DNA from: Bacteroidales bacterium
Lineage (GTDB): Bacteria > Bacteroidota > Bacteroidia > Bacteroidales > UBA1715
Assembly: GCA_017552705.1 (NCBI GenBank)
Contig: JAFZOY010000116.1
Coordinates: 24,310-88,309, forward strand
Reading direction: 5' to 3'
Length of the DNA: 64,000 nt
Part shown: positions 22,943 through 63,921 of the stretch, one piece after another
Numbering within the stretch: position 1 is the stretch's first letter
How the letters are laid out: every line of letters starts with the position of its first letter
Position numbers and translations under genes: made by a program
Notes under the pieces: model-generated
Seen by the model: only the letters and a program-made list of their open reading frames with translations
What the model was told of the DNA's origin: nothing
Databases searched by the model: none

Positions 22943-23416
22943 ATGAGTAGAACAAGTGACGAATTACAAGGCGTAAGCCTATTGGGAAATGCAAAAACGC
23001 AATATCCCTCAGATTATTCCCCCGAACTTTTGGAGACGTTTGTCAACAAGCATCAAGAGAATGATTATCTTGTAACGTTGAATTGTCCGGAATTTACCAC
23101 GTTGTGCCCAAAAACAGGGCAACCTGATTTTGCGAAAATCATCATCAATTATATCCCCGATAAAGAAATGGTGGAAAGCAAATCGTTGAAATTGTATTTG
23201 TTCAGTTTCCGCAACCACGGCGATTTCCACGAGGATAGTATCAACATTATTATGAAGGACTTGGTGAAAATTCTGCAACCTCGCTATCTTGAAGTGATCG
23301 GAATTTTTACTCCACGAGGCGGAATTTCCATCTATCCGTTCGCCAACTATGCCGACGAAAACCACACTGAATTCAAGAACCAACGTCTGTTGGCACAGAT
23401 GAACAAAACTTTTTAG
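22943..23416 (+). CDS. queF: NADPH-dependent 7-cyano-7-deazaguanine (preQ0) reductase
   Basis: [33 protein letters not shown]. Start set at ATG 22943. Confidence 0.9.
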
Positions 23417-23419
23417 TGT

Positions 23420-24076: not shown

Positions 24077-24630
24077 AGCATACCAACAAGATACACGAAA
24101 TTTTTATCAGTCTGCAGGGCGAAGGATTCCACACAGGAACAGCGGCAGTGTTTGTCCGTTTCTCGGGGTGCAACCTTACCTGCGATTTCTGCGACACCCT
24201 TCATCAAACATTCACACTGATGTCCGACGAAGAAATCGCCGAAACAGTGTCGAAATATGCTGTGGATTGGGTTATTCTCACAGGAGGAGAGCCCAGCCTG
24301 CAAGCCTCCGATCAACTCATTGACCTTCTGCATCGGCAAGGCAAAAAAATTGCCATAGAGACAAACGGAACGCATAGTCTCCCACGCAATCTCGACTGGA
24401 TTACTGTTTCTCCAAAAATATGGGACAAAACTATTGTCAATCAAGCTGATGAATTGAAAATAGTGTTCACTGGCGAAGATGTTGAAGCATGGCGGGAAAA
24501 AATCAAAACGAACCATTGGTTTCTGCAACCTTGCTCATGCAAAAACACAACCGAAACCATACAATACATTTTAAACCATCCACATTGGCGATTGTCTATA
24601 CAAACACATAAATATATTGGCATAGAATAA
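24073..24630 (+). CDS. queE: 7-carboxy-7-deazaguanine synthase (radical SAM)
   Basis: EIFISLQGEGFHTGTAAVFVRFSGCNLTCDFCDT, LTGGEP. Confidence 0.9.
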   Translation: MKHTNKIHEIFISLQGEGFHTGTAAVFVRFSGCNLTCDFCDTLHQTFTLMSDEEIAETVSKYAVDWVILTGGEPSLQASDQLIDLLHRQGKKIAIETNGTHSLPRNLDWITVSPKIWDKTIVNQADELKIVFTGEDVEAWREKIKTNHWFLQPCSCKNTTETIQYILNHPHWRLSIQTHKYIGIE

Positions 24631-27311: not shown

Positions 27312-27341
27312 GTGATGTTACTTTTATCGTAGTAACATCAC
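27312..27341. terminator. Bidirectional hairpin between convergent genes
   Basis: 11-bp stem GTGATGTTACT / AGTAACATCAC with an 8-nt loop; overlaps the last codons of the giant gene. Confidence 0.5.
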
Positions 27342-50954: not shown

Positions 50955-52388
50955 TTAGTATTTGTAAATATCCGATTTATAAGGACCTTCGATAGGAACG
51001 CCAAGATATTCGGATTGTTTCTTGGTAAGTTTCGTGAGTTTCACGCCAAGTTTGTCAAGGTGAAGACGGGCAACTTTCTCGTCGAGTTTCTTCGGCAAAG
51101 TGTAAACTTTTGTCTCGTAGCTCTTGTTGTTGGTGAACAACTCGATTTGTGCCAATGTCTGGTTTGTGAACGAAGCCGACATTACAAAACTTGGATGTCC
51201 TGTTGCACAGCCGAGGTTCAACAAACGACCTTCTGCCAAAATCAACACACTATGACCGTCGGGGAATGTCCATTGGTCATATTGTGGCTTGATGTTTTTC
51301 TTCTTGATTCCTGGTATTTTTGCCAACTCAGCCATCTGGATTTCGTTGTCGAAGTGGCCGATGTTGCCCACAATCGCCATATTTTTCATTTTGCTCATGT
51401 GCTCAGCCGTTATAATGTCGCAGTCGCCAGTGGTGGTAACATAAATGTCACCATATTCCAAGGTGTCTTCAACCGTCAACACTTGATAGCCTTCCATTGA
51501 TGCCTGCAAAGCACATATTGGGTCAATTTCCGTCACAATCACACGTGCACCTTGTCCGCGAAGCGATTGGGCGCAACCCTTACCAACGTCACCGTAGCCG
51601 CAGACAACGGCAACCTTGCCAGCCAACATCACGTCGGAGGCACGCATAATACCGTCGGTCAACGAGTGGCGGCAACCATACAAGTTGTCGAATTTCGATT
51701 TTGTAACAGAATCGTTCACGTTGATTGCAGGGAAAGGAAGAATGCCTTGCTCAGCCATTTGGTACAAGCGGTGAACGCCAGTTGTTGTTTCTTCGGAAAC
51801 GCCTATGATGTTTTTCTTTTTGTTTGTCCAGAATAGAGGATCTTGTTTCATCGTCTCGCGACACATATCCAAAATCACGCCCCATTCCTCAGAATCAGTA
51901 TCAGGATTGAAATCAGGAACTTTGCCTTCAGCCTCGAATTGAGAGCCGCGAACCACGATTAAGGTAGCATCACCACCATCGTCAAGTATCATTGTGGGAC
52001 CAGTTCCGTCAGGCCACGTAAGGGCTTTTTTCGTACATTCCCAGTATTCTTTCAACGTTTCGCCTTTCCAAGCAAATACGGGAGTTCCCTGTGGATTGTC
52101 GATTGTCCCGTTCTTGCCCACGACAACTGCTGCTGCTGCATGGTCTTGAGTCGAGAAAATGTTGCACGAAGCCCAACGCACGTCGGCCCCTAGTTCCACC
52201 AATGTTTCAATAAGAATTGCCGTCTGTACGGTCATGTGCAACGAGCCACTGATTTTTGCACCAGCAAGCGGTTTCTTACCTTTATATTCAGCACGGAGAG
52301 CCATCAGCCCCGGCATTTCAATCTCAGCCAAATCAAGTTCCTTACGTCCCCATTCAGCCAATTTGATGTCTGCTACTTTGTATTCCAT
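50955..52388 (-). CDS. ahcY: Adenosylhomocysteinase
   Basis: [17 protein letters not shown]...[14 protein letters not shown]-type pattern, [29 protein letters not shown]. Confidence 0.97.
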
Positions 52389-52704: not shown

Positions 52705-55230
52705 ATGAATAATGGTGTCAAAATAGGTGTAATAATTGCGACATCCATGTCTCGTACAGACGAACTGTTCGGAATGTCTTTAAACTCCGTGTTGAAACAA
52801 ACCTTGCAGCCAGAGTGTATTGTCGTGGTTGATGACAACAATGACAGCAAAATCTCCGAAATTATAAAAAATCAAATAGAAGGCATCGAAAACCCATCTA
52901 TTCACTATATCAAAAACATACGTACCAAAAATATGTCGGGAACAGGTGCATGGAACACAGGTGTCGATTATTTGACTGAAAAACTAGGCTATGATAGCTT
53001 TTTTGCAATCTTGGACGATGACGACAGTTGGGATAACAAATATTTGGAAACCGTTTGTAAGACCATTAATAACAACCCTGACTCTATCGCCGTTTTTGCA
53101 TTTTTAAAACGTAGCGATTGCGAATCCGAATCAAAAATTACTAATGAAGACTTAACCGTAGATAGTTTTCTCATTGGAAATCCTGGCATTCAGGGGTCCA
53201 ACATGTGTTTTAAAATACACAATTTTAGGAGCATTGGCGGTTTTGACGAAAACCTTGCAAGCTGCACAGACCGGGATCTGATGATAAGGTTTTTGCAAAA
53301 TAATGACAAAAACAACATCTCAATTATTCCACAAAAACTTGTCAATCATTTTACATCTGACAAAACAGTAACATCTAATTTCGAAAAGAAAAAAGCAGGA
53401 TTAGATTATTTTTATAAAAAATATATTGATCTATTTGATTTTCCTGTCTTGGACAAGTCATTATTAAGGGCAGAAAAGTTTTTTCATTATGACGGACGTG
53501 CAAACATTGAAAAATTATATCGGCAGACACATCCAGTTTTAATAACAGGCGTTTGCGGCTTCATAGGCTCACATATCGCTCAACAACTGATTAGTCTTGG
53601 CTATTCTGTTGTTGGTATTGACGATTTAAGTACAGGCACCATTGTAAATGTTAGCAAGTTAAGGAGAAACGTCAATTTTGAATTGCACATTTTTTCATTA
53701 CTTGATAATAAAAAATTGGACGAATTATTTGACAAATACAATTTTAATGCGGTTTTACATTGTGCGGCACTGCCAAGAATCAAATACTCAATGGATTATC
53801 CCAACGAAAGTTTTTGCGCAAACGTTACAGCAACGAAAAAACTTGCCGAAATTAGCCGGAAACACCACATAAAAAGATTTGTATTCTGTTCATCATCATC
53901 TGTTTATGGAGAATGTCAAAACGTCATAATGAATGAAAATGATGATCTTCGTCCGATTTCACCATATGCCAAGCAAAAAGCAGAAGCGGAACAAATCTTG
54001 GCAAAAACATTTGAGAACAGCGAAACAATTCTGCTGATTTTCAGACTTTTCAACGTATATGGTTTTTCGCACCAACCTACCAACATATATTCAACATTGG
54101 TCAACAACTTGATAAACAATGCCATATACAATGAGCAGCTGACAGTAAACGGCAATGGTATGCAAAAACGAGATTTTACGTATGTTGGTGACGTCGTAGA
54201 CGCTTTTGTTAAAGCTTTGGAGTTTTTTGATTCTAAAAACCACGTCAACATAATCAACATCGGAACAGGCACAAACCATTCTGTAAACGAAGTAGCAGAT
54301 TATGTAAGTCAGATTACAGGTAGAAAATATACAATACAAATCAATGTTGAGCCATCATTTACATTAGCAGATAATAGTTTGGCAGACAAAATGTTAAATT
54401 GGAAACCGCAAACCGCCATCATATCAGGGCTCAAAACGGTTTATAAACAAACTGTGCAAAACCAAATCATTGCAATAGGCATAGCAATGCACAACAATGC
54501 TTCTACAATTCGTCGATGCCTTAAATCTGCACTTGGACAGGCCAACTGCAAACGCAAATTACTCTTTGTTTTGGCAGACGACCAATCTTCAGACAATTGG
54601 AATGATGAAATTGCTGATTTGCTAAATGACGAAAGAATAATAGTGATGCATTTACAAAACTCCAATGTTGTAAAAACTCGCAATATGATCAATGATTACA
54701 TCAAATCTAAAATTGGAAATGTGGCACTAATTGGACGGCTGGACGCAGATGACGAATATGCATCAAAAACCGTTTTGGCTGAAATAGAGAGTATTTATGA
54801 CACGGAAAATCCTGATTTGATTCTTGCAGGAAATTACCTAAGACAAAACGGGAATATAATCCAAAGAAAAAATCTTGCTGTAAAAGATTTGGCAAACATT
54901 GATTATGTTTTGAAACGGTTGAAACAAATGTCAGAAAATAATGCCGAAGGAGAACTGCCATCATGCAATCTGATTGCAAAACCTAAAGTTCTCATACAGT
55001 ACCCTGACATCCGTAGTGGCGAAGATCATGCATTATTGGTGCATTACCTAATCAACCAGGACAAATACAAATTGTATTTTGCAGAAGATTTGCTTCTAAC
55101 AATATACAATCTTGGAGGTAACACAACATCTAAAAATATTAAAACACAAAAGCATAAAATTTGTCGTGAGCAATTATATAAAAACACATTGGAATTATGC
55201 AAAATGAAAAAAGAAAGCAAAAGGCAATAG
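52705..55230 (+). CDS. Tri-domain fusion: GT2 glycosyltransferase - NAD-dependent sugar epimerase/dehydratase (SDR) - GT2 glycosyltransferase (841 aa)
   Basis: N-terminal GT-A: IGVIIATSMSRTDELFGMSLNSVLKQT..IVVVDDNND, FAILDDDDSW. SDR: VLITGVCGFIGSHI, SSSSVYG, YAKQK. C-terminal GT-A: IAIGIAMHNNASTIRRCLKSALGQ, VLADDQSSD, RLDADDEY. Confidence 0.8.
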   Translation: MNNGVKIGVIIATSMSRTDELFGMSLNSVLKQTLQPECIVVVDDNNDSKISEIIKNQIEGIENPSIHYIKNIRTKNMSGTGAWNTGVDYLTEKLGYDSFFAILDDDDSWDNKYLETVCKTINNNPDSIAVFAFLKRSDCESESKITNEDLTVDSFLIGNPGIQGSNMCFKIHNFRSIGGFDENLASCTDRDLMIRFLQNNDKNNISIIPQKLVNHFTSDKTVTSNFEKKKAGLDYFYKKYIDLFDFPVLDKSLLRAEKFFHYDGRANIEKLYRQTHPVLITGVCGFIGSHIAQQLISLGYSVVGIDDLSTGTIVNVSKLRRNVNFELHIFSLLDNKKLDELFDKYNFNAVLHCAALPRIKYSMDYPNESFCANVTATKKLAEISRKHHIKRFVFCSSSSVYGECQNVIMNENDDLRPISPYAKQKAEAEQILAKTFENSETILLIFRLFNVYGFSHQPTNIYSTLVNNLINNAIYNEQLTVNGNGMQKRDFTYVGDVVDAFVKALEFFDSKNHVNIINIGTGTNHSVNEVADYVSQITGRKYTIQINVEPSFTLADNSLADKMLNWKPQTAIISGLKTVYKQTVQNQIIAIGIAMHNNASTIRRCLKSALGQANCKRKLLFVLADDQSSDNWNDEIADLLNDERIIVMHLQNSNVVKTRNMINDYIKSKIGNVALIGRLDADDEYASKTVLAEIESIYDTENPDLILAGNYLRQNGNIIQRKNLAVKDLANIDYVLKRLKQMSENNAEGELPSCNLIAKPKVLIQYPDIRSGEDHALLVHYLINQDKYKLYFAEDLLLTIYNLGGNTTSKNIKTQKHKICREQLYKNTLELCKMKKESKRQ

Positions 55231-58200
55231 AACTGCTCACCGAAATGGGATTAAAGAATCTCGAGTATCTCGGTCAGGGCAGTGAAGGCATAGTCTTTCA
55301 CGATGACGTCTCTGTTTACAAAGTACTTTCCCAACAGAAACGGGACAAAGTCGAAATTTATAGACGTCTATCTTTTTTCTTCAACATATCGTCATCTGGT
55401 TATTTTTACAAGCTTGATGACTTGATTGAATATGGCGACTTCTTCATCGAAAAATACAAGTATGAGCCGAGTACTCCCTGCGATAACATTTCAGAGAAGG
55501 AAGCCATTGAATTTTTGACAGAATGCTGGCAAAATCATTTTGTAATAAAAGATTGTAAAATAAAAAATTTTGTCAGAACGGGCCATCATATAAAACTCAT
55601 TGATATGGATGCATGCAGTTATAACGATAACTTATTCTTAAACATGTGCATTCGCATGTATCTTTTTATCAATTATAAAAACACAATGGATTCAGCTTCT
55701 TTTCAGAGGCTCAAACGAAGCGCCATAAACAATTTTGACTTACCTGAATTAAAAGGTGCAAAGAAATTCATCAATAAAGTTTTCGCCCATATCATCCATC
55801 AAGAATCTCTCTCTGAGATTTCAAAATTCAAAGTACCAGAAGACTTTAGCGGCGATTTATACACTTGCAACACCCTTCCAAATTTGGACAAGTTATTATT
55901 CCATAAAATCAAATGCGGCAGGTTCATAGAAGACATCATCATATCCGACTTAACTTTGAACGACAAACTATATTTTGAACCCCAAAAAATCGGATTAATC
56001 TACCGGGAACTCCTCCCGCTAAAAGATAAGGTCTCATTGCTCATAAAAACCTGTCCGCAAGACATTCCGACCATAGAAGCAAATATAAAGCACATCGTAA
56101 GGCAACTTTCCTCACCGAATCCGTTCTATGAGGTTGTTGTCTCTATTGACACCAAAGAGGCGAATTTTCTGAGGGAATACAATTCTACGGGCAATCTGAC
56201 AAAACTCGTTGAAATCGTACAGAAGCTTGTTGATGACAAGGTCATCGACAGATTTATCGTGTTTGACGCAACAAAAACCGAAGAAATAAATGAGAGATGG
56301 TTCGGCTTAAAATCCAATCAGGCACACACAACAAAAAACATTCCTGTCAGTTCGCAACTTTCCGCCTTTGAACAATGCCAAGGCGATTATGTTCTGCAAT
56401 GCGATTGCGATGTCCTTATCGGCCGAAAGGACTTTACTCATTCCTTCTTAGAAGACATGCTCTCAGAATTGAAACAAAACGAAAAAGTTCTTTTCGTCGG
56501 TTTCAATATATACAATCAGGAGTCTAAGCCCTATTTCGGATTCGAAAATGGTGGTTTCGTTCCCGAAGTGAGATTTGGCCTATTCAAAAAAGAACGCCTG
56601 TTCGCTTTGAGGCCATTCCCCAACAGTGTTGATAAAGAAGGGCGCCTGGAATTGTCTTGGTACCGTTCCATAGAGCAGTTCCAAAAACAATCGGGATACT
56701 GTTCTATTCGCGGTGGTGACAACCGTAGTTTCTATATACACCCCCAGAATTATCGCAAGACAGAGCCATATGCGTGGATGACTATTCTCGACAGAGTCGA
56801 ACAGCTGCAAATTCCTGATATTCAGTATGGTGGTTTTGATTGCGAAGGCTCTTTCTACGATTGGACTGCTCCAAGAAGAGCCGAAAAAATGATTGTTGTT
56901 TCTTGCTTTAGAAATATGCCCATTGATCGTTTTTTACGATTCTGGTGTTCGCTTATGAGTCAAGACTTTCAAGATTTTGGGATAATTTTATGCGACAACG
57001 GTTCTGACAATGGAACGCCTTTCTTGATAGAGCGGCTCATTCAGCCCTACAAAGATCGCATCACTTTCATTCGTTCTAGAGTTGTTCTGCCGAAAATACA
57101 GTTGGTATACCAAGCCATACACTATTTCTGCAATAACCAGCAAAGTGTCATTGCCATGATCGATGGGGATGATGCACTAATAGGGAAAAACACATTCAGT
57201 GACATCTATAGTAAATACGACACATGGTACATTGATGCATCTGTTGGCAGAGTTTACCAGACATGCCACCTACAACCACATTACCAATATCCTGCAAACT
57301 TCATTAATCCCCGAGGTACTGATGGAGGTAATGTATGGCAACCGTTGAGAACATTCCGAAAATATCTCTTTGATTCTATTCCATTAACTCACTTCAAATA
57401 CAGATCTTTTAACAAGATAAAACTCAATAGGAATCCTTGGCTTGAAGAATATGACGACTGCGCCATGATGATTCCAATTATAGAGATGAGCAAATCTCCT
57501 TTGCAAATGGACACCATCAACTATTTTGACGAATTCCATAATGAAGGTTTCATTTCGAATACCTCGTGTATTTCCGAAATATTGAGCAAACCTAGACTCA
57601 ATCCAAATAACGTTTTCATTGGCCGTCAATCATTCAGACCCGATTTTGAGCGGATAGAAATAGATCTTACCTATGACTGCAACCTGAAATGTCTAGGATG
57701 TAATCGATCCTGCGGACAAATGCCGTCAAAAGAACAATTGCAATTGCAGGATATCAGGGATTTTATAAATGATAGCGTTAAATTAGGCAAGAAGTGGAAA
57801 CATATCAATGTCCTTGGCGGGGAACCCACCTTACATCCGAATTTTGAAGAAATCATGGTGTTACTGCAACAATATATTGATGAACATTCCCCTAATACAA
57901 CCATACAGGTCGTCTCCAATGGTATCGCAAAGAAATCAAGAGAACTATGCGAGAAGATAAAAGCAGAATGCAAAAATGTAAGCATTGACTATGATTCTTA
58001 CAAAAACAACAACAAAATTGAATTTTTTTCTTCTTTCAATGACGCTCCCATTGACGACGAGAACTTTAAAAATGCAGATTACACAAAATCCTGCTGGGTA
58101 ACGAGCTATTGTGGCATCGGTTTGACAAGCCGAGGATATTATGCTTGCGCGGTATGCGGAGGCATTGACCGCGTACTTGATGAACACAATGGTGCAAAAA

Positions 58201-58379
58201 TTTTCTCGGAATTAACCGAAGAAAAATTAAGGGAACACTACAACAAATTTTGCAGACTTTGCGGAAATTACAAAGCCTATGCGCAGAATTTTGGAAATTT
58301 CATCCTTCGTTGTGAAAAGGAACCATTCAAAAACATCATTTCCAAATCATGGGGAAAACTATACGACAATCTATCCTGA
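55197..58379 (+). CDS. Four-domain fusion: protein-kinase-like - GT-A - GT-A - radical SAM with Cys-rich C-terminus (1060 aa)
   Basis: Kinase-like: GQGSEGIVF, VYKV, IKDCKIKNF, LIDMD. GT-A: DYVLQCDCDVLIG. GT-A: IILCDNGSDN, AMIDGDDALIG. Radical SAM: DLTYDCNLKCLGCN (TGC at 57678), VLGGEPTLHP. C-terminus: CWVTSYCG..YYACAVCGG..FCRLCGNY. Overlaps the upstream gene by 34 nt. Confidence 0.75.
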   Translation: MQNEKRKQKAIELLTEMGLKNLEYLGQGSEGIVFHDDVSVYKVLSQQKRDKVEIYRRLSFFFNISSSGYFYKLDDLIEYGDFFIEKYKYEPSTPCDNISEKEAIEFLTECWQNHFVIKDCKIKNFVRTGHHIKLIDMDACSYNDNLFLNMCIRMYLFINYKNTMDSASFQRLKRSAINNFDLPELKGAKKFINKVFAHIIHQESLSEISKFKVPEDFSGDLYTCNTLPNLDKLLFHKIKCGRFIEDIIISDLTLNDKLYFEPQKIGLIYRELLPLKDKVSLLIKTCPQDIPTIEANIKHIVRQLSSPNPFYEVVVSIDTKEANFLREYNSTGNLTKLVEIVQKLVDDKVIDRFIVFDATKTEEINERWFGLKSNQAHTTKNIPVSSQLSAFEQCQGDYVLQCDCDVLIGRKDFTHSFLEDMLSELKQNEKVLFVGFNIYNQESKPYFGFENGGFVPEVRFGLFKKERLFALRPFPNSVDKEGRLELSWYRSIEQFQKQSGYCSIRGGDNRSFYIHPQNYRKTEPYAWMTILDRVEQLQIPDIQYGGFDCEGSFYDWTAPRRAEKMIVVSCFRNMPIDRFLRFWCSLMSQDFQDFGIILCDNGSDNGTPFLIERLIQPYKDRITFIRSRVVLPKIQLVYQAIHYFCNNQQSVIAMIDGDDALIGKNTFSDIYSKYDTWYIDASVGRVYQTCHLQPHYQYPANFINPRGTDGGNVWQPLRTFRKYLFDSIPLTHFKYRSFNKIKLNRNPWLEEYDDCAMMIPIIEMSKSPLQMDTINYFDEFHNEGFISNTSCISEILSKPRLNPNNVFIGRQSFRPDFERIEIDLTYDCNLKCLGCNRSCGQMPSKEQLQLQDIRDFINDSVKLGKKWKHINVLGGEPTLHPNFEEIMVLLQQYIDEHSPNTTIQVVSNGIAKKSRELCEKIKAECKNVSIDYDSYKNNNKIEFFSSFNDAPIDDENFKNADYTKSCWVTSYCGIGLTSRGYYACAVCGGIDRVLDEHNGAKIFSELTEEKLREHYNKFCRLCGNYKAYAQNFGNFILRCEKEPFKNIISKSWGKLYDNLS

Positions 58380-59287
58380 TTACAGGTGTTTCTGGTTTTA
58401 TCGGCAGAAGTCTTGTTGAAGAAATTGTTAATCGGGATTTTTCATGGACAATCTACGGCATTGACATAAAAGAACCTGTTTTAAATGATTCCAAATATCG
58501 CAAATACATTGATTTTAGTATAGTTGATATTCGCGACGAAAATGCAGTTGAAACGTATTTTCTTGAACATCAATTTGACGGTGTTATACATCTTGCCGCC
58601 ATCAGTAGAGTTGTTGATGCAGAAAATAACAAAAAAAATTGTATTGCTACAAATTACTGGGGTACGAAATATATTGTGGAAAATGTAGCAAAACAACAAA
58701 ATACCTGGTTTATATTCGGTAGTAGTCGTGAAGTATATGGTGAACAAAAGGTGCTTCCCGTCAAAGAATCTGCAAATAAGAATCCCATTAACATCTATGG
58801 AGAATGCAAGTTAAAAGGTGAATTATTGGTCAAAGAGTTAATAAAAAAATACGTTATACTTAGATTCTCAAATGTGTATGGCAACAACTACGATATTGAT
58901 GGCCGCGTAATACCAACTTTCGTCAAGAGGGCTTTGGCAGGAGAAACGCTATATCTTGAGGGAGGTCAGCAAGTGATTGATTTTACGTATATTCAAGATA
59001 CTGTTGATTGCATAATAAGAATTGCAGAATTGTTACAAAATGGAACTATTCATTCGGATGAATTACATATTAGTCCTGGCAATGAAAACAAAATTACTGA
59101 CATTATCTCTTACTTGGAGAAACTTCTAAATAAGAATATTAATATTGAGATTCGAGAAAAACGAAACTATGATGTGGTACGATTTATAGGTGACACATCG
59201 CATAGATTAGATATTTTGGATGTGTCAGAATTTAAATGTTTATCGAAAGGCCTCGAGTTATATTTACAATCTTTCCCATTGTCATAA
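58349..59287 (+). CDS. NAD-dependent sugar epimerase/dehydratase (SDR)
   Basis: ILITGVSGFIGRSLV, GSSREVYGE, YGECKLKGE (YxxxK). Overlaps the upstream gene by 31 nt. Confidence 0.85.
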   Translation: MGKTIRQSILITGVSGFIGRSLVEEIVNRDFSWTIYGIDIKEPVLNDSKYRKYIDFSIVDIRDENAVETYFLEHQFDGVIHLAAISRVVDAENNKKNCIATNYWGTKYIVENVAKQQNTWFIFGSSREVYGEQKVLPVKESANKNPINIYGECKLKGELLVKELIKKYVILRFSNVYGNNYDIDGRVIPTFVKRALAGETLYLEGGQQVIDFTYIQDTVDCIIRIAELLQNGTIHSDELHISPGNENKITDIISYLEKLLNKNINIEIREKRNYDVVRFIGDTSHRLDILDVSEFKCLSKGLELYLQSFPLS

Positions 59288-59376: not shown

Positions 59377-59407
59377 AAAGAGCAGCCTCATGAAGAGACT
59401 GCTCTTT
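59377..59407 (-). terminator. Hairpin terminator between convergent units (better T-run in minus sense)
   Basis: AAAGAGCAG (59377-85) / CTGCTCTTT (59399-407), 13-nt loop. In minus sense it is followed by TTTTTTAT. Confidence 0.6.
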
Positions 59408-59961: not shown

Positions 59962-60939
59962 TTATTGTGTAAGCCAATGTATTGGGATAATATATTGCCC
60001 TTGCTTTTCCAAATCAATTTTTCTTATGGCAAAATATTGTTGTGTTGTTGACAATGTGAGAATAATAGGATTAATTTTTTCAAAGATAATCTTCTTTACT
60101 TTTTTTATTATAATCTTTTTTTCTCGCCATTCATGTAACTTTTTCCGTGCATTTTCTATTTTAGGGGAATCATTCTCTATTACCAGTTTATATTGTTTTA
60201 GAACTTCTTCACAGAATGATTCGGTTTCAAACCAACTATCATAAAATATACGTTTATAATATAATACACCATAGATCGCTCTGATTTTCGGCTCAAGTTT
60301 TATTAGAATTTTTTCATATTCGTAATCCACATTTTTTAATTTGACACAAAAATCATTATTTTTAAAAGTTGTTTGAATCTTCAGTGGCTCTGTTAATTTA
60401 GGATTGTAATCAAGAAACTGTAGTGTAGAACTGCCAAAAGAAAGAAACTTTTCGCCTATGTCGTTTAAAATTACACCAGCATTATATTTTTCTGCACTAT
60501 CATCACCTTTTTTGCTGCCAAATAGAACAAGTAGAGGAGCTTTGAGACTAGGATCGGAAATTTCTACACGTTTCAATGTAGTTTTTCCTGTCAAAAAGTC
60601 AATATAAAATTCATCTGGGTATTCTTCAAACAATTTGCTCACGTGTTTATGCTTTCGAACATTCATTTTATATTCACTTTTAAAAAATAAAGTATAGATG
60701 AACATAAATTGCAATATATCAATCGCTTTTTGCTCTTTAGGACAGGGTATAAATGTTTTGCTACCAAACGAAAATAGCACTGTCAAAAATTGCATCGCAT
60801 ATGTTTTCAATTCGGGAGTTAAGTATTTTATATCAACAACATTATCCCCAACATCAATGCGTAATACATCTATGCTTTCTGGATTTTTTAATTTAAATTT
60901 AGCCATTTTAGTTTTTTTCTCATCTATGTCAATTATCAT
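59962..60939 (-). CDS. Hypothetical protein, 325 aa, no recognisable motif, extremely AT-rich
   Basis: Long ORF with ATG 60939 (alternative MAKFKLK at 60906). Lys/Ile/Phe/Tyr-rich. No Walker or nuclease motif seen. Confidence 0.5.
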   Translation of the reverse strand: MIIDIDEKKTKMAKFKLKNPESIDVLRIDVGDNVVDIKYLTPELKTYAMQFLTVLFSFGSKTFIPCPKEQKAIDILQFMFIYTLFFKSEYKMNVRKHKHVSKLFEEYPDEFYIDFLTGKTTLKRVEISDPSLKAPLLVLFGSKKGDDSAEKYNAGVILNDIGEKFLSFGSSTLQFLDYNPKLTEPLKIQTTFKNNDFCVKLKNVDYEYEKILIKLEPKIRAIYGVLYYKRIFYDSWFETESFCEEVLKQYKLVIENDSPKIENARKKLHEWREKKIIIKKVKKIIFEKINPIILTLSTTQQYFAIRKIDLEKQGQYIIPIHWLTQ

Positions 60940-61137: not shown

Positions 61138-62487
61138 ATGAAAGGTAAAATACATCGTCAAGCGTTTGAGTTTCTTCAAGAATGGAGAAACAGCGACAGC
61201 AGAAAACCTTTGATATTAAGAGGTGCACGGCAAGTGGGGAAAACCACACTTGTTAAGCACTTTGCCGAAACTTACGCTGTGTTTATACATCTGAATCTTG
61301 AAAAAAGGGAAGACCGCAATTTGTTTGAAATGACTGACAATGTGAATCAACTCATTGCGAACATTTTCGTCCGTGAAGGCGTAAGGCAAGATGCAAAGAA
61401 TGTTTTGCTTTTCATTGATGAAATACAAAATTCCAAACCAGCAGTAGCAATGTTGCGGTATTTTTACGAGGAAAGGTATGATCTTCACGTAATTGCCGCT
61501 GGTTCGTTGCTCGAAACGGTTATGGATGTAAGACGGATCTCGTTCCCGGTGGGAAGGGTGCAGTTTATGTCGCTCAAGCCGTGTTCATTCGTTGAATTTC
61601 TCGATGGAATGGATTTAGTTCAGGAAAAGGAGTTTGTCGAACAAGTTGATGTCCCATGGGTTATACACGAACGTGTGATGCGACATTTTAGGGAATATAC
61701 CATTGTTGGAGGTATGCCCGATGCGGTGACACAATATGCTGCTACACATGACCATCAGGCAATAAGCACTGTTTATGAAAGTTTGTTGCAAACATATAAG
61801 GACGATGTGGAAAAGTACTCGTCGAGTGCGACAATTATACGTACCATCCGTTCTATATTGAATGTGGGTTGGAATAGTGCCGCAGAAATAATTTCGTTTG
61901 AAGGATTTGGTGAGACGGCATATCGCTCCCGAGAAATGAGCGAGGCGTTCCAAATCATATCAAAGGCAATGCTTTTGGAACTTGTGTATCCTACATCCGA
62001 AACTCGTCTGCCAATTGCACCAAATTATCGCCGTCGTCCTAAGCTGTTGTGGCTCGATACAGGACTTGTCAATTATGCCGCTGGCGTTCAAAAAGATGTT
62101 TTTCTTGCTGATGACATACAGGATATTTGGCGAGGAAGAATAGCGGAACACGTTGTTGGACAAGAACTTATAGCAAACAGGACAGAGGTTTCGGCACATC
62201 GTTCATTTTGGCATCGCGACAAACAAGGAGCTTCGGCTGAAGTAGATTTTATTTATCCATATCAGGGGTTGCTTGTGCCTGTTGAGGTCAAATCGGGACA
62301 TAATGCTCATTTAAAATCGTTACATCTTTTTATGAACGAAGCACCTCATAACATTGCAGTTAGAGTTTGGTCGAAGCCGTTTTCCCGTGATGAGGTAAAG
62401 ACTTCGCACGGAAAAACTTTCAAGTTGCTCAACGTGCCATTTTATTATGTAGGTCAACTTGAAAAAATATTGCAAAAGGAAATATAG
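61138..62487 (+). CDS. AAA+ ATPase of the AAA_14/DUF4143 type with C-terminal PD-(D/E)xK-like motif
   Basis: Walker A GARQVGKTT, LLFIDEIQ, C-terminal AEVDFIYPYQGLLVPVEVKSG. Confidence 0.8.
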   Translation: MKGKIHRQAFEFLQEWRNSDSRKPLILRGARQVGKTTLVKHFAETYAVFIHLNLEKREDRNLFEMTDNVNQLIANIFVREGVRQDAKNVLLFIDEIQNSKPAVAMLRYFYEERYDLHVIAAGSLLETVMDVRRISFPVGRVQFMSLKPCSFVEFLDGMDLVQEKEFVEQVDVPWVIHERVMRHFREYTIVGGMPDAVTQYAATHDHQAISTVYESLLQTYKDDVEKYSSSATIIRTIRSILNVGWNSAAEIISFEGFGETAYRSREMSEAFQIISKAMLLELVYPTSETRLPIAPNYRRRPKLLWLDTGLVNYAAGVQKDVFLADDIQDIWRGRIAEHVVGQELIANRTEVSAHRSFWHRDKQGASAEVDFIYPYQGLLVPVEVKSGHNAHLKSLHLFMNEAPHNIAVRVWSKPFSRDEVKTSHGKTFKLLNVPFYYVGQLEKILQKEI

Positions 62488-62506: not shown

Positions 62507-63832
62507 TTAGTTGTTCCCGAATAAATTTTCGTTCAGTGCAATCAATGCTTTTTCTTTGTTTTTGGTGTCGATAAGCACCGAGATGTTGTGGTCGCTACCG
62601 CCATAGCAAATCATTCGTACCGAAATGTCTTTCAACGATTTAAGCACTTCTGTCGCATGACCTTGTTCCTCGGCAATCATATTTCCAACAATGCAGATGA
62701 TTGTTTGGTCTTTGTCGACTTCAACTGTACCCAATTTTTTCAGTTCGTCAGTTATCTGAGCAAGATAGTCAACCTTGTCGATTGTGAGCGACAACGCAAC
62801 TTCCGAAGTAGTGATCAAGTCGATTGGCGTTTTGTATTTTTCGAAGACCTCGAACACGCGACACAGAAATCCGTATGCGAGCAACATTCTGCCTGATTTT
62901 ATCTTGATGGCTGTCAGACCATCTTTTGCAGCGATAGCCTTGATACCCGTACCAGTCACCTTGTTCGAAATTGTGGTTCCTTTTGCAAGCGGTTCCATAG
63001 TGTTTTTAAGCAATACAGGAATATTTTTCACCTTTGCAGGAAGCACAGTCGATGGGTGAAGGATTTTTGCACCGAAATACGCAAGTTCGGCAGCCTCGTC
63101 AAACGACATTTCAGCGATAGGATGCGTATTTTTTACAATACGAGGATCGTTGTTGTGGATGCCGTCGATGTCGGTCCAAATTTCAACAACTTCAGCATTG
63201 ATTGCAGCACCGATAAGCGATGCGGAATAATCGCTACCGCCACGTTTTAGGTTGTCAACCTCGCCTTTGTCGTTTGTGCAGATAAATCCTTGCGTAATGA
63301 ACAGCGTAGTATCAGGATAGCGTTGCAGAACTTTTTTCAGTTCACTTTCGATTTTTGTCATCACAGGTTCGCCGTCGCCGTCAACAAACATAAATTCAAG
63401 CGAGTTGAGCAGAACCGAAGGAATATTATTTTCTTCGTGATAAAGTTGCACCAAGTTGGTTGACATGATTTCGCCGCGGGCAAGAATCATTTTTTCAGCC
63501 TGTATATTGAATGGCTTATGGGCAAACGAGCGTACCACGTCGCATTCGCGAGTGATGATAGACTTCGCTTTCTCGCGGAACTGAGGAGTCTGCAACAGAC
63601 CTTCGATTACGCCGTCGTATTTCTTTTCCAATGCGGAAATGAGGTTCGACGCTGCGTCGTCGTTTCCTTTTTTGAAATAGTCAGAAATTTCAACCAAATT
63701 GTTGGTAGTTCCCGACATTGCCGAAAGGACAACAATCTGCTTGTTTCCGTCGGTAATCAATTTGGAAACGTTTTTCATTCTTTCAGGCGAACCAACCGAG
63801 GTTCCACCGAATTTCAATACTTTCATAGTCAT
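62507..63832 (-). CDS. lysC: Aspartate kinase
   Basis: MKVLKFGGTSVGS, VVVLSAMSGTTN, GGSDYSA, C-terminal ACT-like region. TACCTTTG box at 63846-63853. Confidence 0.95.
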   Translation of the reverse strand: MTMKVLKFGGTSVGSPERMKNVSKLITDGNKQIVVLSAMSGTTNNLVEISDYFKKGNDDAASNLISALEKKYDGVIEGLLQTPQFREKAKSIITRECDVVRSFAHKPFNIQAEKMILARGEIMSTNLVQLYHEENNIPSVLLNSLEFMFVDGDGEPVMTKIESELKKVLQRYPDTTLFITQGFICTNDKGEVDNLKRGGSDYSASLIGAAINAEVVEIWTDIDGIHNNDPRIVKNTHPIAEMSFDEAAELAYFGAKILHPSTVLPAKVKNIPVLLKNTMEPLAKGTTISNKVTGTGIKAIAAKDGLTAIKIKSGRMLLAYGFLCRVFEVFEKYKTPIDLITTSEVALSLTIDKVDYLAQITDELKKLGTVEVDKDQTIICIVGNMIAEEQGHATEVLKSLKDISVRMICYGGSDHNISVLIDTKNKEKALIALNENLFGNN

Positions 63833-63921
63833 ATTTTTAGTGCCGCAAAGGTACAAAAAATGCGAAAAGCCCAATAATTTTTAACGACGATTTCTGAATG
63901 ATGCTCCGTGTGATTTACTGA

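What the first reader, a model, noticed from the sequence alone, without database searches (positions are those of the whole stretch)
55197..58379. 1060-aa protein joining a minimal protein-kinase-like domain, two GT-A domains and a C-terminal radical SAM domain with extra Cys clusters
- **Kinase-like region:** directly visible motifs are the Gly-loop GQGSEG (from 55272), VYKV Lys, the catalytic-loop-like DCKIKN (55551-55568) and IDMD (a DFG-like position).
- **GT-A domains:** DxD-type motifs DCD (around 56400) and DGDD (57162-57173).
- **Radical SAM domain:** CNLKCLGC (CX3CX2C, 57678-57701) and GGEPTLHP. Seven more Cys follow in the last 110 residues (CWVTSYC, CAVC, CRLC), which could ligate an auxiliary Fe-S cluster (SPASM/twitch-like).
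- **Why it matters:** kinase-like sugar or lipid kinases (WaaP/KdkA-type) and glycosyltransferases are known partners. Covalent fusion of both to a radical SAM enzyme is unusual to my knowledge and implies substrate channelling between phosphorylation, glycosyl transfer and radical chemistry.
Basis: partly seen in the sequence, partly recalled or inferred. Interest (0 to 1): 0.75.

Follow-up and report, generated by a model that had tools for sequence, protein, structure and literature searches.

The report
Kinase-like, four-glycosyltransferase, radical SAM enzyme module
The 1060-residue protein is real and is the core of a widespread, mobile and so far undescribed enzyme set (a protein-kinase-like domain, four glycosyltransferase domains and a radical SAM domain) whose partner genes suggest it attaches sugars to a purine-type base such as 7-deazaguanine.

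Summary

**Domains**
- **aa 1-275:** a minimal Ser/Thr-protein-kinase-like fold (AF2 pLDDT 91; Foldseek top 50 all protein kinases).
- **aa 276-562:** a divergent GT-A glycosyltransferase that Pfam misses (pLDDT 87; top 50 all GT-A), with an invariant DxD.
- **aa 563-810:** GT2, above the Pfam cut-off.
- **aa 811-1060:** radical SAM, above the cut-off, with CX3CX2C plus five invariant C-terminal Cys.

**Not a chimera**
- More than 120 full-length homologues exist, and relatives occur in 258 species genomes across bacterial phyla and archaea.
- The ordered set GT2a-GT2b-KIN-X-GT2c-rSAM is constant but is split or fused in many ways.
- The window carries it as a three-gene operon (52705-59287) with two SDR sugar-nucleotide enzymes.

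**Context**
- In 30 of 78 loci the operon also holds QueC or the YhhQ preQ0 transporter, never both.
- A sister branch always (5 of 5) carries a LOG-like base-releasing enzyme.
- Loci often lie among restriction-modification, defence and mobile-element genes.

**Best model (inferred, confidence about 0.4):** a cytoplasmic machine that glycosylates, phosphorylates and radical-modifies a purine-type base or nucleotide.

**Literature:** I found no description of this system.

The parts
52705..55230 (+). Upstream operon gene (841 aa): GT2a (aa 1-265), GalE-like SDR epimerase/dehydratase (aa 266-590) and GT2b (aa 591-841). It overlaps the core ORF by 34 nt.
   Evidence: - Pfam finds PF00535 twice, plus PF01370 (191.6 bits) and PF16363.
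- GalE TIGR01179 scores 187 bits, below its cut-off.
- GT2a and GT2b are found next to, or fused to, the core in nearly all loci.
- Acidic motifs are conserved: DDDD 104-107 and DxDD 680-683.
55197..56021 (+). Core protein aa 1-275: a minimal protein-kinase-like, ATP-binding domain. It has a Gly-loop (G26/G28/G31), K42, catalytic loop D119-C-K-I-K-N124 and D136, but no activation segment. A small beta linker follows (aa ~215-275).
   Evidence: - Profile versus PDB: the best 60 hits are all ePKs, best E 6.6e-4.
- AF2 pLDDT is 91.2.
- Foldseek top 50 are all Ser/Thr kinases, E 4e-8 to 1e-6.
- G28, K42, N124 and D136 are invariant, while D119 is variable.
56022..56882 (+). Core protein aa 276-562: 'domain X', a divergent GT-A-fold glycosyltransferase. 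D403-x-D405 is invariant, and the HPQNYRK motif (H515-K521) is conserved in more than 90% of 75 homologues.
   Evidence: - No Pfam, NCBIfam or PDB sequence hit.
- AF2 pLDDT 86.7, pTM 0.89.
- Foldseek PDB top 50 are all GT-A enzymes, including COLGALT1, POMGNT1, BcsA, K4CP, GalNAc-T, TarP and LARGE1, at E about 1e-6 and TM about 0.45.
- It is one of the most conserved parts of the protein.
56883..57626 (+). Core protein aa 563-810: a GT2-family GT-A glycosyltransferase (GT2c) with D600 and D656-G-D658-D659.
   Evidence: - PF00535 scores 47.4 bits against a cut-off of 23.3.
- The profile hits SpsA 1h7l at E 3e-5.
- D600, D659 and D680 are conserved.
57627..58379 (+). Core protein aa 811-1060: a compact radical SAM domain. 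It has C828-x3-C832-x2-C835 and GGEPT 874-878. A C-terminal Cys set (C966, C972, C984, C1019, C1022) is a probable auxiliary Fe-S site.
   Evidence: - PF04055 scores 41.9 bits against a cut-off of 29.5, and Fer4_12 also hits.
- No curated NCBIfam or PHROG family reaches its cut-off. The nearest are the N-terminal cores of MoaA, viperin and Tes.
- Cys conservation was measured in 78 homologues.
- PDB hits are 7tol at 6e-5 and 7wzv at 1e-3.
58349..59287 (+). Downstream operon gene (312 aa): an SDR-family NAD-dependent sugar-nucleotide epimerase, dehydratase or reductase. It overlaps the core ORF by 31 nt.
   Evidence: - PF01370 scores 143 bits, with PF04321 and PF16363 also hitting.
- A homologous SDR lies directly downstream of the core in 23 loci.
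59377..59407 (.). A 13-bp-stem hairpin followed by a T-run, lying after the SDR gene. It is the likely end of the three-gene operon.
   Evidence: Terminator-like site from the consensus scan. This is a pattern match only.

Best explanation
**What it is.** The ORF is the central enzyme of a self-contained, cytoplasmic, horizontally mobile glycosylation module. The module has a constant ordered domain set: GT2a, GT2b, a kinase-like ATP-binding domain, a divergent GT-A (X), GT2c, and a radical SAM domain with an auxiliary Fe-S site. In this window the set is spread over two translationally coupled genes. A third gene and an embedded domain supply SDR enzymes that tailor the nucleotide-sugar donors.

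**Proposed mechanism (inferred).**
1. A soluble purine-type acceptor is the starting substrate, most likely the free base 7-cyano-7-deazaguanine (preQ0) or a nucleotide derived from it. In this window it would come from the housekeeping queF-queC-queE genes.
2. Metal-dependent GT-A domains glycosylate it.
3. The kinase-like domain binds ATP-Mg and phosphorylates the sugar or base-sugar intermediate. Alternatively it only holds the nucleotide-like intermediate.
4. Further GT2 domains extend the product.
5. The radical SAM domain performs one radical step on the sugar or base: C-C or C-X bond formation, oxidation or dehydration.

The product would be a phosphorylated glycosyl-deazapurine, used as a metabolite in inter-genomic conflict.

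**Shown:**
- the domain identities;
- conservation of the catalytic and ligand residues;
- the conserved domain set;
- the operon partners;
- the absence of membrane segments;
- the island context.

**Inferred:** the acceptor, the order of steps, the radical chemistry and the biological role.
For: **Domain identities:**

**Active sites.** All four GT-A domains keep DxD-type acidic motifs. ATP/Mg ligands G28, K42, N124 and D136 are invariant in 75 homologues. CX3CX2C and five further Cys are conserved in 78.

**Conserved domain set.** The ordered set is the same across about 78 loci from several phyla, however it is split or fused. KIN-X-GT2c is the constant core in the best 150 of 618 strong representatives.

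**Soluble proteins.** None of the three window proteins has a TM segment. No flippase, polymerase or lipid-carrier gene is conserved nearby.

**Link to a purine-type base:**
- QueC lies in the operon in 20 of the 78 tabulated loci (two further fragment loci also carry it). It scores 176 and 158 bits against the TIGR00364 cut-off of 150.3.
- The YhhQ queuosine-precursor transporter is in the operon in 10 of the 78 loci (plus one fragment). It scores 150 bits against the TIGR00697 cut-off of 51.
- The two are never found together. They sit on the same strand as the core, often overlapping it, in Flavobacteriia, Chitinophagia, Bacteroidales, Treponema, Fibrobacter, Myxococcales and a Proteobacteria MAG.
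- The linked QueCs form their own subgroup. The canonical YPDC pocket motif is changed to [FY]WDC in 17 of 21 (motif defined in PMC13329287).
- The sister branch with a SAM methyltransferase in place of the radical SAM domain has a LOG/SLOG-like gene (PF18306) overlapping its 3' end in 5 of 5 members checked.

**Phosphorylated intermediate.** Some relatives carry a fused histidine-phosphatase domain.

**Viral homologues.** Stand-alone homologues of the radical SAM domain sit between DNA polymerase A, a 5'-3' exonuclease and a thymidylate-synthase homologue, or with GT2 and methyltransferase genes.

**Island context:**
- Neighbours include BREX, type I R-M, GmrSD (4 times), McrBC, Wadjet JetD, PglZ, resolvases and transposases. 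PADLOC candidate PDC-S01 lies next to the window operon.
- GC is 0.34-0.41 across 52-62 kb, against 0.40-0.44 on either side.
Against: - No product, acceptor or activity has been observed. Every mechanistic step is inference.
- The window operon itself has neither QueC nor YhhQ. The housekeeping queFCE genes lie about 28 kb away, and 48 of 78 loci lack a preQ0 gene in the operon.
- No preQ1 riboswitch was found in the window or 12 loci.
- No base-exchange (TGT/DpdA-like) or nucleoside-type enzyme is in the module.
- The catalytic Asp of the kinase-like domain is missing in 27% of homologues, so phosphorylation may not be universal.
- Many neighbours are housekeeping genes, so the defence-island association is an enrichment, not a rule. 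It was not tested against a matched background.
- SDR, GT2 and NDP-sugar dehydrogenase partners are equally typical of ordinary polysaccharide loci.
Confidence: 0.4

Rival explanations
1. It is an ordinary, though unusually fused, glycan-assembly module. It would build or decorate a cell-surface polysaccharide, glycolipid or glycoprotein, for example a phosphorylated, radical-modified tetrasaccharide repeat. It would be variable between strains because it changes phage receptors or antigenicity. QueC and YhhQ would be neighbours for unrelated reasons.
For: - GT2 domains, GalE-like SDRs and an NDP-sugar dehydrogenase are the standard content of surface-glycan loci.
- Foldseek neighbours of domain X include polymerising GT-A enzymes (BcsA, K4CP, hyaluronan synthase, LARGE1, TarP).
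- Patchy, island-borne distribution is also typical of glycan-variation loci.
Against: - No TM helix is present in any module protein.
- No conserved flippase, polymerase, initiating phosphoglycosyl transferase, ABC exporter or chain-length gene lies in about 70 loci.
- In many genomes the module stands alone as one gene of 1540-1900 aa.
- QueC or YhhQ appear repeatedly in the operon, mutually exclusive, in several phyla, and a LOG-like gene is present in 5 of 5 of the sister branch. This is hard to explain by chance.
Confidence: 0.25
2. It is a nucleic-acid hypermodification system. The GT-A domains would glycosylate a base already in DNA or tRNA, for example a 7-deazaguanine inserted by host enzymes, or a base made reactive by the radical SAM and kinase-like domains. 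This would mark self DNA against restriction or alter tRNA during phage infection.
For: - Loci sit beside R-M, BREX, McrBC and GmrSD genes.
- Homologues of the radical SAM domain lie inside phage replication modules, next to DNA polymerase A, an exonuclease and a thymidylate-synthase homologue.
- There is a link to preQ0, a known precursor of DNA and tRNA modifications (PMC6884629, PMC5699537).
- From my own knowledge: known thymidine hypermodification pathways combine a DNA kinase with a radical SAM enzyme.
Against: - No DNA- or RNA-binding domain, DpdA/TGT homologue, helicase or nuclease is a constant part of the module.
- The full module is absent from IMG/VR contigs and GenBank phages.
- Four GT domains is many for a base modification.
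- A LOG-like partner and a base transporter point to free bases rather than polymer-bound ones.
Confidence: 0.17
3. It is a peptide (RiPP) or protein maturase. The protein-kinase-like domain would recognise or phosphorylate Ser/Thr of a substrate peptide, as in class III/IV lanthipeptide synthetases. The GT2 domains would glycosylate it, as glycocin S/O-glycosyltransferases do. The radical SAM domain, with its auxiliary cluster, would install a cross-link.
For: - The closest sequence and fold relatives of the kinase-like domain are protein kinases.
- Weak NCBIfam hits of the radical SAM core include SPASM/twitch peptide maturases.
Against: - No conserved small ORF lies within 1.2 kb of the module in about 75 loci.
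- The kinase-like domain lacks the activation segment and the P+1/APE elements that bind peptides (secondary structure).
- No protease or exporter partner is present.
- SDR sugar enzymes and QueC/YhhQ partners do not fit a RiPP cluster.
Confidence: 0.05
4. It is an artefact: a chimeric ORF created by mis-assembly or frameshift that joins unrelated genes.
For: None found.
Against: - The identical sequence is on 4 independent contigs from three sources.
- More than 120 full-length homologues cover 97-100% of the query.
- The same domain order is seen in 258 species genomes.
Confidence: 0.01

Closest known systems
7-deazapurine glycoside pathways of actinomycetes (huimycin, proposed dapiramicin A)
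   Same: - preQ0 made by QueC is the aglycone, and glycosyltransferases attach sugars to it.
- Sugar-nucleotide tailoring enzymes of the SDR type (RmlB/RmlD-like) accompany the pathway (PMC7439116; bioRxiv 10.64898/2026.04.15.718813).
- Here, QueC or a preQ0 transporter sits in the operon with GT and SDR genes.
   Different: - Those clusters carry the full FolE/QueD/QueE/QueC set, a GT of Pfam family PF13439 rather than GT2, and an O-methyltransferase.
- They have no kinase-like domain and no extra radical SAM enzyme.
- They are actinomycete secondary-metabolite clusters.
- Here there are four GT-A domains, a kinase-like domain and a new radical SAM family, mostly in Bacteroidota and in island contexts. 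The link to preQ0 is only genomic.
Tunicamycin-type nucleoside sugar chemistry (TunA/TunF SDRs, TunB radical SAM, TunD GT); comparison from my own knowledge, not tested here
   Same: SDR enzymes that remodel a UDP-sugar are combined with a radical SAM enzyme acting on a nucleoside-sugar intermediate and a GT-A glycosyltransferase, all of them soluble.
   Different: - No detectable sequence relationship to TunB was tested or found.
- Tunicamycin clusters have no kinase-like domain, only one GT, and they add a lipid chain.
Dystroglycan matriglycan pathway (POMK kinase acting between glycosyltransferase steps; LARGE1 as a double GT-A enzyme); pathway facts from my own knowledge, with POMGNT1 and LARGE1 appearing as fold hits
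   Same: - A protein-kinase-fold enzyme phosphorylates a sugar within a growing glycan, and later GTs need that phosphate.
- Two GT-A domains are fused in one chain.
- POMGNT1 and LARGE1 are among the Foldseek matches of domain X.
   Different: - That pathway is eukaryotic, luminal and acts on a protein acceptor, with no radical SAM enzyme.
- The similarity here is at fold level only (TM about 0.4, 10-14% identity).
Prokaryotic viperins (pVips) and MoaA
   Same: - The radical SAM core gives its best, sub-threshold profile hits to MoaA and to viperin-family models. Both act on nucleoside triphosphates.
- pVips are defence genes that are often linked to nucleotide kinases.
   Different: - Scores are far below the family cut-offs: 36-44 bits against 180-284.
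- Matches cover only the N-terminal CX3CX2C/GGE core.
- The C-terminal five-Cys region is unlike either family.
- The kinase here has the protein-kinase fold, not a P-loop.
QueC-family proteins repurposed in defence (QatC of QatABCD, Cap9 of type IV CBASS)
   Same: A QueC-family gene is embedded in a mobile, island-borne multi-gene system (PMC13329287, PMC13279940).
   Different: - The QueCs linked to this module keep the canonical SGGxDS, VPxRN and zinc motifs and pass the QueC equivalog cut-off.
- QatC matches are only 23-25 bits against a cut-off of 280.
- No QatA/B/D or Cap10 partners are present.

Membership tests
Radical SAM superfamily (PF04055) | CX3CX2C motif that ligates the SAM-binding [4Fe-4S] cluster | tested here: met
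   C828-x3-C832-x2-C835 is present. It is conserved in 76 of 78 homologues, and the other 2 are gapped.
Radical SAM superfamily (PF04055) | Profile score above Pfam's gathering threshold | tested here: met
   41.9 bits against a cut-off of 29.5, over aa 824-937.
Radical SAM superfamily (PF04055) | Reductive cleavage of SAM to a 5'-deoxyadenosyl radical | not testable with these tools
   Requires anaerobic purification, EPR or UV-vis, and detection of 5'-deoxyadenosine.
SPASM/twitch subfamily of radical SAM enzymes | C-terminal Cys motif binding one (twitch) or two (SPASM, 7-Cys CX9-15GX4C...CX2CX5CX3C) auxiliary clusters, and membership of a curated SPASM or twitch model | tested here: inconclusive
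   - Five conserved Cys have the spacing C966-x5-C972-x11-C984 ... C1019-x2-C1022. This does not match the 7-Cys SPASM pattern.
- The twitch model NF033640 scores 34-35 bits against a cut-off of 170, and only on the N-terminal core.
- An auxiliary cluster is plausible, but family membership is not shown.
Eukaryotic-like protein kinase (ePK/PKL) fold | Bilobal kinase fold | tested here: met
   AF2 pLDDT is 91.2. Foldseek gives 1478 PDB hits at E<=1e-3, and the top 50 are all Ser/Thr kinases.
Eukaryotic-like protein kinase (ePK/PKL) fold | Nucleotide-binding motifs: Gly-rich loop, beta3 Lys, catalytic-loop Asn and DFG-position Asp | tested here: met
   G28, K42, N124 and D136 are invariant, and G26 is conserved in 74 of 75 homologues.
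Eukaryotic-like protein kinase (ePK/PKL) fold | Catalytic-base Asp (HRD position) conserved | tested here: not met
   It is present in the window protein (D119). In the family it is D in 55, N in 14, S in 4 and C in 2 of 75, spread over several lineages.
Eukaryotic-like protein kinase (ePK/PKL) fold | Activation segment with APE/P+1 elements for peptide substrates (true protein kinases) | tested here: not met
   Only about 7 residues separate D136 from the next long helix (144-160) in the model. No APE motif is present.
   - None appears among the best 60 PDB sequence hits or the top 50 fold hits, which are all Ser/Thr protein kinases.
- No Pfam Kdo or APH model hit the protein at E<=0.1.
- Lower-ranked hits were not inspected.
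Glycosyltransferase family 2 (GT-A fold, PF00535) | Profile score above the gathering threshold, plus a DxD metal/nucleotide-sugar motif | tested here: met
   - aa 566-709 score 47.4 bits against a cut-off of 23.3.
- D656-G-D658-D659 is conserved.
- This applies to GT2c only.
Glycosyltransferase family 2 (GT-A fold, PF00535) | Domain X (aa 276-562) as a member | tested here: inconclusive
   - GT-A membership at fold level is met, with an invariant D403-x-D405.
- No Pfam or NCBIfam GT model reports this region as its best stretch.
- It is best treated as a new GT-A family.
Prokaryotic viperin (pVip) defence family | Full-length match to viperin models above their cut-off | tested here: not met
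   - NF038283 scores 36.5-40.6 bits against a cut-off of 180.
- PADLOC pVip models score 39.7 and 27.8 bits, covering only profile positions 3-115 of about 260.
QueE (7-carboxy-7-deazaguanine synthase) | Match to any QueE model above its cut-off | tested here: not met
   - No QueE model is among the best 25 hits for the window domain.
- The PHROG 'QueE-like' family scores 22 bits.
- The genuine QueE of this genome is at 24073-24630 (164 bits).
Known anti-phage defence systems (PADLOC-DB 2.0) | Any module protein matches a defence-system model | tested here: not met
   Only the weak pVip hits on the radical SAM core. There are no hits for the GT2-SDR-GT2 or SDR proteins.

The most novel reading that the evidence does not exclude
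The KIN-X-GT2c superfamily would define a new class of conflict or defence system. It has two branches. One carries the radical SAM domain with QueC or YhhQ as partners. The other carries a methyltransferase with a LOG-like partner. On this reading the system takes a free purine-type base (preQ0, or a base released from a nucleotide), builds it into a phosphorylated, glycosylated pseudo-nucleotide, and uses that product as an antiviral antimetabolite, a signal or a nucleic-acid mark. This chemistry is not known from any described immune system, and it would be the first role for a Hanks-type kinase fold and a GT-A array in nucleobase metabolism.
Probability: 0.2. Interest if true: 0.9.

Novelty: new variant of a known kind. 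Interest (0 to 1): 0.72.

Why it matters
**Scale and neglect**
- The module is large (up to 1900 aa in one chain) and strongly conserved.
- Relatives occur in 258 species genomes, and 618 representative clusters match strongly.
- It spans Bacteroidota, Campylobacterota, Spirochaetota, Fibrobacterota, Myxococcota, Proteobacteria and archaea.
- Public annotation calls it only 'glycosyltransferase' or '4Fe-4S cluster-binding protein'.

**New families it contains**
- A GT-A family invisible to Pfam.
- A radical SAM family with no curated model, which also occurs in phages.
- A minimal protein-kinase-like domain whose ATP-binding residues are invariant but whose catalytic Asp is not.

**If the preQ0/LOG link reflects the substrate**
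- It would open a new branch of 7-deazapurine biochemistry outside actinomycete antibiotics and tRNA/DNA base exchange.
- It might also reveal a new kind of island-borne conflict system.

**Testability.** Cultured carriers make this directly testable:
- Lutibacter citreus
- Olleya namhaensis DSM 28881
- Lacinutrix jangbogonensis
- Winogradskyella rapida
- Shewanella marina JCM 15074
- Salinivibrio kushneri TGB19
- Cystobacter fuscus

Tried and rejected
- **Chimera or sequencing error:** rejected.
- **Domain X as a sugar-1-phosphate nucleotidyltransferase (kinase plus NTase activation pair):** considered. All of the top 50 fold matches are DxD glycosyltransferases and the DxD is invariant, so I did not adopt it.
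- **Radical SAM domain as QueE, MoaA, viperin or NrdG:** all hits are far below cut-off and cover only the N-terminal core.
- **preQ1 riboswitch control of the operon:** no Rfam hit in the window or 12 loci.
- **Phage-encoded full module:** none in IMG/VR or GenBank phages. Only stand-alone homologues of the radical SAM domain were found.
- **Plasmids:** one distant split version, on a Salinivibrio 607-kb replicon flanked by IS elements.
- **Conserved precursor peptide:** none.
- **Membrane anchoring:** none.
- **LOG-like gene in the radical SAM branch:** none.
- **Identity of PDB 7wzv, the second-best radical SAM hit:** not resolved. Text searches for the entry codes found nothing relevant.
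- **Literature searches for this architecture or for its links to QueC, SLOG or defence:** nothing describing it.
- **Sigma-70 promoter scan:** uninformative, with counts equal to shuffles.
- **Not run:**
  - A structure model of the radical SAM domain or of the full-length protein, because the two prediction jobs went to the two unannotated N-terminal domains.
  - A matched-background test of defence-gene enrichment.

Full report
**1.

The ORF 55197-58379 (+) is intact and encodes 1060 aa.
- G26-Q-G28-S-E-G31 from nt 55272, and K42 in VYKV.
- D119-C-K-I-K-N124 at 55551-55568, and I-D136-M-D.
- D403-C-D405, and D656-G-D-D659 at 57162-57173.
- C828-x3-C832-x2-C835 at 57678-57701, and GGEPTLHP.
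- Seven Cys in the last 95 residues.

The identical protein is on four contigs from three public sources. It is deposited as MBR5434605.1, 'MAG: glycosyltransferase [Bacteroidales bacterium]'. A search of 5.8 billion proteins returned more than 120 homologues. Nearly all cover 97-100% of the query, at 46-89% identity. A sequencing chimera is excluded.

**2. Domain by domain**

*(a) aa 1-275, the kinase-like domain*
- Pfam and NCBIfam see nothing.
- A profile of 23 homologues hits 303 PDB sequences at E<=10. The best 60 are all eukaryotic-type protein kinases, such as ROCK2, TTK, Snf1, CDK2, twitchin and bacterial YabT, with best E 6.6e-4.
- The AF2 model is confident (pLDDT 91.2, pTM 0.84).
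- Foldseek finds 1478 PDB matches at E<=1e-3. The top 50 are all Ser/Thr kinases, such as CaMKII, CDPK1, AMPK, Aurora and PAK1, at E 4e-8 to 1e-6 and TM about 0.45.
- The family consensus of the catalytic loop is D-C-K-P-E-N, which is the Ser/Thr-kinase pattern.
- The domain is 'minimal'. A long helix starts only about 7 residues after D136, so there is no activation segment or APE motif.
- Across 75 diverse homologues G28, K42, N124, D136 and R153 are invariant, and G26 is conserved in 74. The catalytic-base Asp is D in 55, N in 14, S in 4 and C in 2, in several lineages. ATP/Mg binding is under strong selection, whereas base-assisted phosphotransfer is not universal.

*(b) aa 276-562, domain X*
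- There is no sequence hit to Pfam, NCBIfam or PDB.
- The AF2 model (pLDDT 86.7, pTM 0.89) matches only GT-A glycosyltransferases in the Foldseek top 50. These include COLGALT1, POMGNT1, BcsA, K4CP, GalNAc-T2/T3, TarP, glycogenin, LARGE1 and AvpGT, at E about 1e-6.
- D403-x-D405 is invariant.
- This is one of the most conserved parts of the protein.

*(c) aa 563-810, GT2c*
- GT2 scores above the Pfam cut-off (47.4 against 23.3 bits).
- The profile hits SpsA at E 3e-5.

*(d) aa 811-1060, the radical SAM domain*
- Radical_SAM scores above the cut-off (41.9 against 29.5 bits).
- No curated NCBIfam, PADLOC or PHROG family comes near its threshold. The nearest are the N-terminal cores of MoaA, viperin and the tetraether synthase Tes.
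- In 78 homologues C966, C984, C1019 and C1022 are invariant and C972 is conserved in 77. C839 is present in 55, and C987 and C1039 are not conserved.
- This fits one auxiliary Fe-S site, but it does not match the 7-Cys SPASM motif.

**3. The ORF is one piece of a conserved six-domain system**

A scan of one genome per species found relatives in 258 of 185,579 species. I fetched 75 loci. They come from:
- mostly Bacteroidota;
- also Campylobacter, Treponema, Fibrobacter, Opitutales, Myxococcota and Gammaproteobacteria (Shewanella marina, Methylovulum, Amphritea);
- archaea (Thermoplasmata, Methanocella).

I called ORFs myself and ran BLASTP against the window domains. The same ordered set appears in nearly every locus: GT2a, GT2b, KIN, X, GT2c, rSAM. 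It is packaged in at least six ways:
- GT2a | GT2b | core.
- GT2a-GT2b | core.
- GT2a-SDR-GT2b | core, as in this window.
- All fused, at 1540-1900 aa.
- GT2b fused to the core.
- In distant Myxococcota and Proteobacteria, GT2a | GT2b-KIN-X-GT2c | rSAM as a separate gene, sometimes in two copies.

The kinase-like domain is still detectable in the distant versions (E 1e-7 to 1e-14). All four GT-A domains keep their acidic motifs.

In the window the three genes overlap by 34 and 31 nt and end before a strong hairpin at 59377-59407. None of the three proteins has a membrane segment.

**4. What travels with it**

Clustering all neighbours gave three recurrent accessory genes, always on the same strand as the core and usually overlapping it:
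- SDR sugar-nucleotide enzymes, in 35 of 78 loci, either fused or separate.
- QueC, in 20 of the 78 tabulated loci. Two more fragment loci that hold only the radical SAM end also carry it.
- A Vut_1/YhhQ transporter, in 10 of the 78 loci, plus one fragment locus.

An NDP-sugar dehydrogenase-like gene occurs in four loci.

The QueCs pass the QueC equivalog cut-off (176 and 158 bits against 150.3). The transporters pass the 'queuosine precursor transporter' cut-off (150 against 51).

QueC and YhhQ never occur together. QueC sits either upstream of GT2a or downstream of the core. The carriers span Flavobacteriia, Chitinophagia, Saprospiria, Bacteroidales, a Proteobacteria MAG and Myxococcales for QueC, and Bacteroidales, Treponema and Fibrobacter for YhhQ.

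For a single-copy gene, chance adjacency would be of the order of 0.2% per locus. This is my own rough estimate, not a computed test.

The linked QueCs keep SGGxDS, VPxRN and the zinc motif. They change the pocket motif YPDC to [FY]WDC in 17 of 21. The window's housekeeping QueC keeps YPDC (motif roles from PMC13329287).

This window's operon has no QueC or YhhQ. The genome does have queF-queC-queE at 22799-24630. No preQ1 riboswitch was found.

**5. Island context**

In Pfam-annotated contigs, the window and its homologues' loci show these neighbours:

| Locus | Neighbours |
|---|---|
| L001 | BREX |
| L002 | Type I R-M system, plus HipA_2 and DUF3037 |
| L003 | AAA_21 and HicB |
| L004 | Resolvase, DUF5906 and RecU |
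| L008 | A transposase |
| Salinivibrio | Two IS elements |
| Window, 61138-62487 | PADLOC candidate PDC-S01 (590 bits) |

I also surveyed 210 distinct neighbour families within three genes of the module. Among them:
- N6_Mtase/HsdM appears 3 times, GmrSD_N 4 times, SbcC/AAA_23 twice and resolvase twice.
- McrBC, BsuBI/PstI, JetD, PglZ and Lon_C each appear once.
- Many housekeeping genes are also present.

GC content is 0.34-0.41 across 52-62 kb, against 0.40-0.44 on either side. I did not run a matched-background enrichment test.

**6. Relatives of the parts**

*Viral homologues of the radical SAM domain*
- No full module is in IMG/VR or GenBank phages.
- About 30 viral contigs encode stand-alone proteins of about 230-340 aa that are homologous to the whole radical SAM domain, including its Cys region (26-38% identity).
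- In five of them the gene lies between DNA polymerase A and a 5'-3' exonuclease, with a Gp2.5-like SSB and a thymidylate-synthase homologue nearby.
- Elsewhere it lies with GT2, GT4, GT25, FkbM methyltransferases, a second radical SAM gene, UDP-galactopyranose mutase or SDRs.

*The wider superfamily*
- An exhaustive profile search of 1.84 billion representatives gave 618 hits at E<=1e-30.
- My own HMMs show that KIN-X-GT2c is the constant core of the best 150.
- The largest group (54 representatives, 1700-2000 aa) is a sister branch. It has GT2a, KIN, a class I SAM methyltransferase, X and GT2c, and no radical SAM domain.
- All five members I could look up have a LOG/SLOG-like gene (PF18306, GGGxGTxxE motif) overlapping the 3' end. 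They sit beside STAND NTPases, a CHAT protease, or an SNF2 helicase plus an MmeI-type methylase.
- Two relatives carry a fused histidine-phosphatase domain.
- The LOG-like gene is absent from the radical SAM branch.

**7. Most likely mechanism**

*Shown*
- A soluble array of four competent-looking GT-A domains.
- A nucleotide-binding kinase fold.
- A radical SAM domain with a probable second cluster.
- SDR enzymes that tailor the donor sugars.
- Operon partners whose only common denominator is supply of a free purine-type base: QueC makes preQ0, YhhQ imports it, and LOG-type enzymes release a base from a nucleotide.

*Inferred*
- The base, or a nucleotide made from it, is the acceptor. It is glycosylated as in huimycin-type pathways.
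- The kinase-like domain phosphorylates or clamps the intermediate. The phosphatase-bearing relatives argue that a phosphorylated intermediate exists.
- Further GT2 domains extend the product.
- The radical SAM domain (a methyltransferase in the sister branch) performs one tailoring step.

I give this model about 0.4.

**8. Rivals**
- **Ordinary surface-glycan or protein-glycosylation module (0.25).** It fits the GT2/SDR content. It does not explain the lack of any membrane or export component, or the base-supply partners.
- **In-situ nucleic-acid hypermodification (0.17).** It fits the R-M neighbourhoods and the phage replication-module homologues. The module has no nucleic-acid-binding or base-exchange component.
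- **RiPP or protein maturase (0.05).** It is disfavoured by the absence of any conserved small ORF and of peptide-binding kinase elements.
- **Artefact (0.01).**

**9. Comparison with known systems**

The closest in logic are:
- The actinomycete preQ0 glycoside pathways (PMC7439116; bioRxiv 10.64898/2026.04.15.718813).
- Tunicamycin-type SDR plus radical SAM plus GT chemistry (from my own knowledge).
- The POMK/LARGE1 arrangement, in which a kinase fold acts between GT steps (from my own knowledge).

The protein is not a member of any of these. It fails the viperin, MoaA and QueE cut-offs and matches no PADLOC system. Its domain X and its radical SAM domain lack curated families.

Full-text searches for the architecture and for its QueC, SLOG or defence links found no description.

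**10. Verdict**
- The protein is the core of a widespread, uncharacterised system, not a one-off fusion.
- Its function is unknown. The genomic evidence points to purine or 7-deazapurine glycosylation in a conflict-island setting.
- This is new for the enzyme families involved and is directly testable in cultured carriers.

Noticed in passing
window 22799-24630 (+): A housekeeping queF-queC-queE operon: preQ1 synthase QueF-II at 168.6 bits, QueC at 183.3 bits, and a Cx14CxxC-type QueE at 163.8 bits, which is below its cut-off of 240. The organism therefore looks able to make preQ0 and preQ1 itself. This QueC keeps the canonical YPDC motif, unlike the module-linked QueCs.
   Followed up: partly
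window 61138-62487 (+) and 59962-60939 (-): An AAA_14/DUF4143 ATPase matches the PADLOC defence candidate PDC-S01 (590.7 bits). Beside it is a 325-aa ORF with no Pfam, NCBIfam or PADLOC hit. Both lie in the same low-GC stretch as the operon, between adenosylhomocysteinase (50955-52388, -) and aspartokinase (62507-63874, -).
   Followed up: partly
window 27324-38198 (-): A giant ORF of 3624 aa. I did not examine it.
   Followed up: no
L096:9959-10666, L090:8129-8830, L098, L106, L110 (IMG/VR contigs): Phage-encoded stand-alone homologues (about 235 aa) of the radical SAM domain, including its C-terminal Cys motifs. They are embedded in a T7-like replication module: Gp2.5-like SSB, DNA polymerase A, the radical SAM gene, a 5'-3' exonuclease, DUF6378 and a thymidylate-synthase homologue. 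This is an uncharacterised phage radical SAM family, possibly nucleotide- or DNA-directed.
   Followed up: partly
L165, L167, L168, L169, L170, L171: A sister two-gene system. The first gene encodes a protein of 1700-2000 aa (GT2a, kinase-like domain, SAM methyltransferase, X, GT2c, sometimes a histidine phosphatase). The second is an overlapping LOG/SLOG-like gene (PF18306), present in 5 of 5 members checked. Neighbours are STAND NTPases, a CHAT protease, GAP1-N2, and an SNF2 helicase plus an MmeI-type methylase.
   Followed up: partly
L075:11523-12341 (-), L164:10745-11515 (-), also L076 and L077: In the gammaproteobacterial split versions, a conserved hypothetical protein of 255-292 aa lies on the opposite strand between the GT gene and the radical SAM gene. 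The two copies scanned (L075, L164) have no NCBIfam hit.
   Followed up: partly
L004 13251-13346 (+) and 13425-13517 (-): Two inverted copies of the Rfam TD-2 RNA motif (57.9 and 56.5 bits, cut-off 48.7). They lie between the module's SDR gene and a resolvase gene, at the edge of a mobile element.
   Followed up: no
L001 7345-10466 and 10701-17115: In Lutibacter the module is followed by four small unannotated ORFs (one of them DUF4407), an HTH gene and a complete BREX locus with BrxA, BrxB, BrxC and a PglX-type methylase.
   Followed up: no
window 15419-15489 (-): The only Rfam gathering-level hit in the window is a tRNA gene. No riboswitch lies anywhere in the 64 kb.
   Followed up: no
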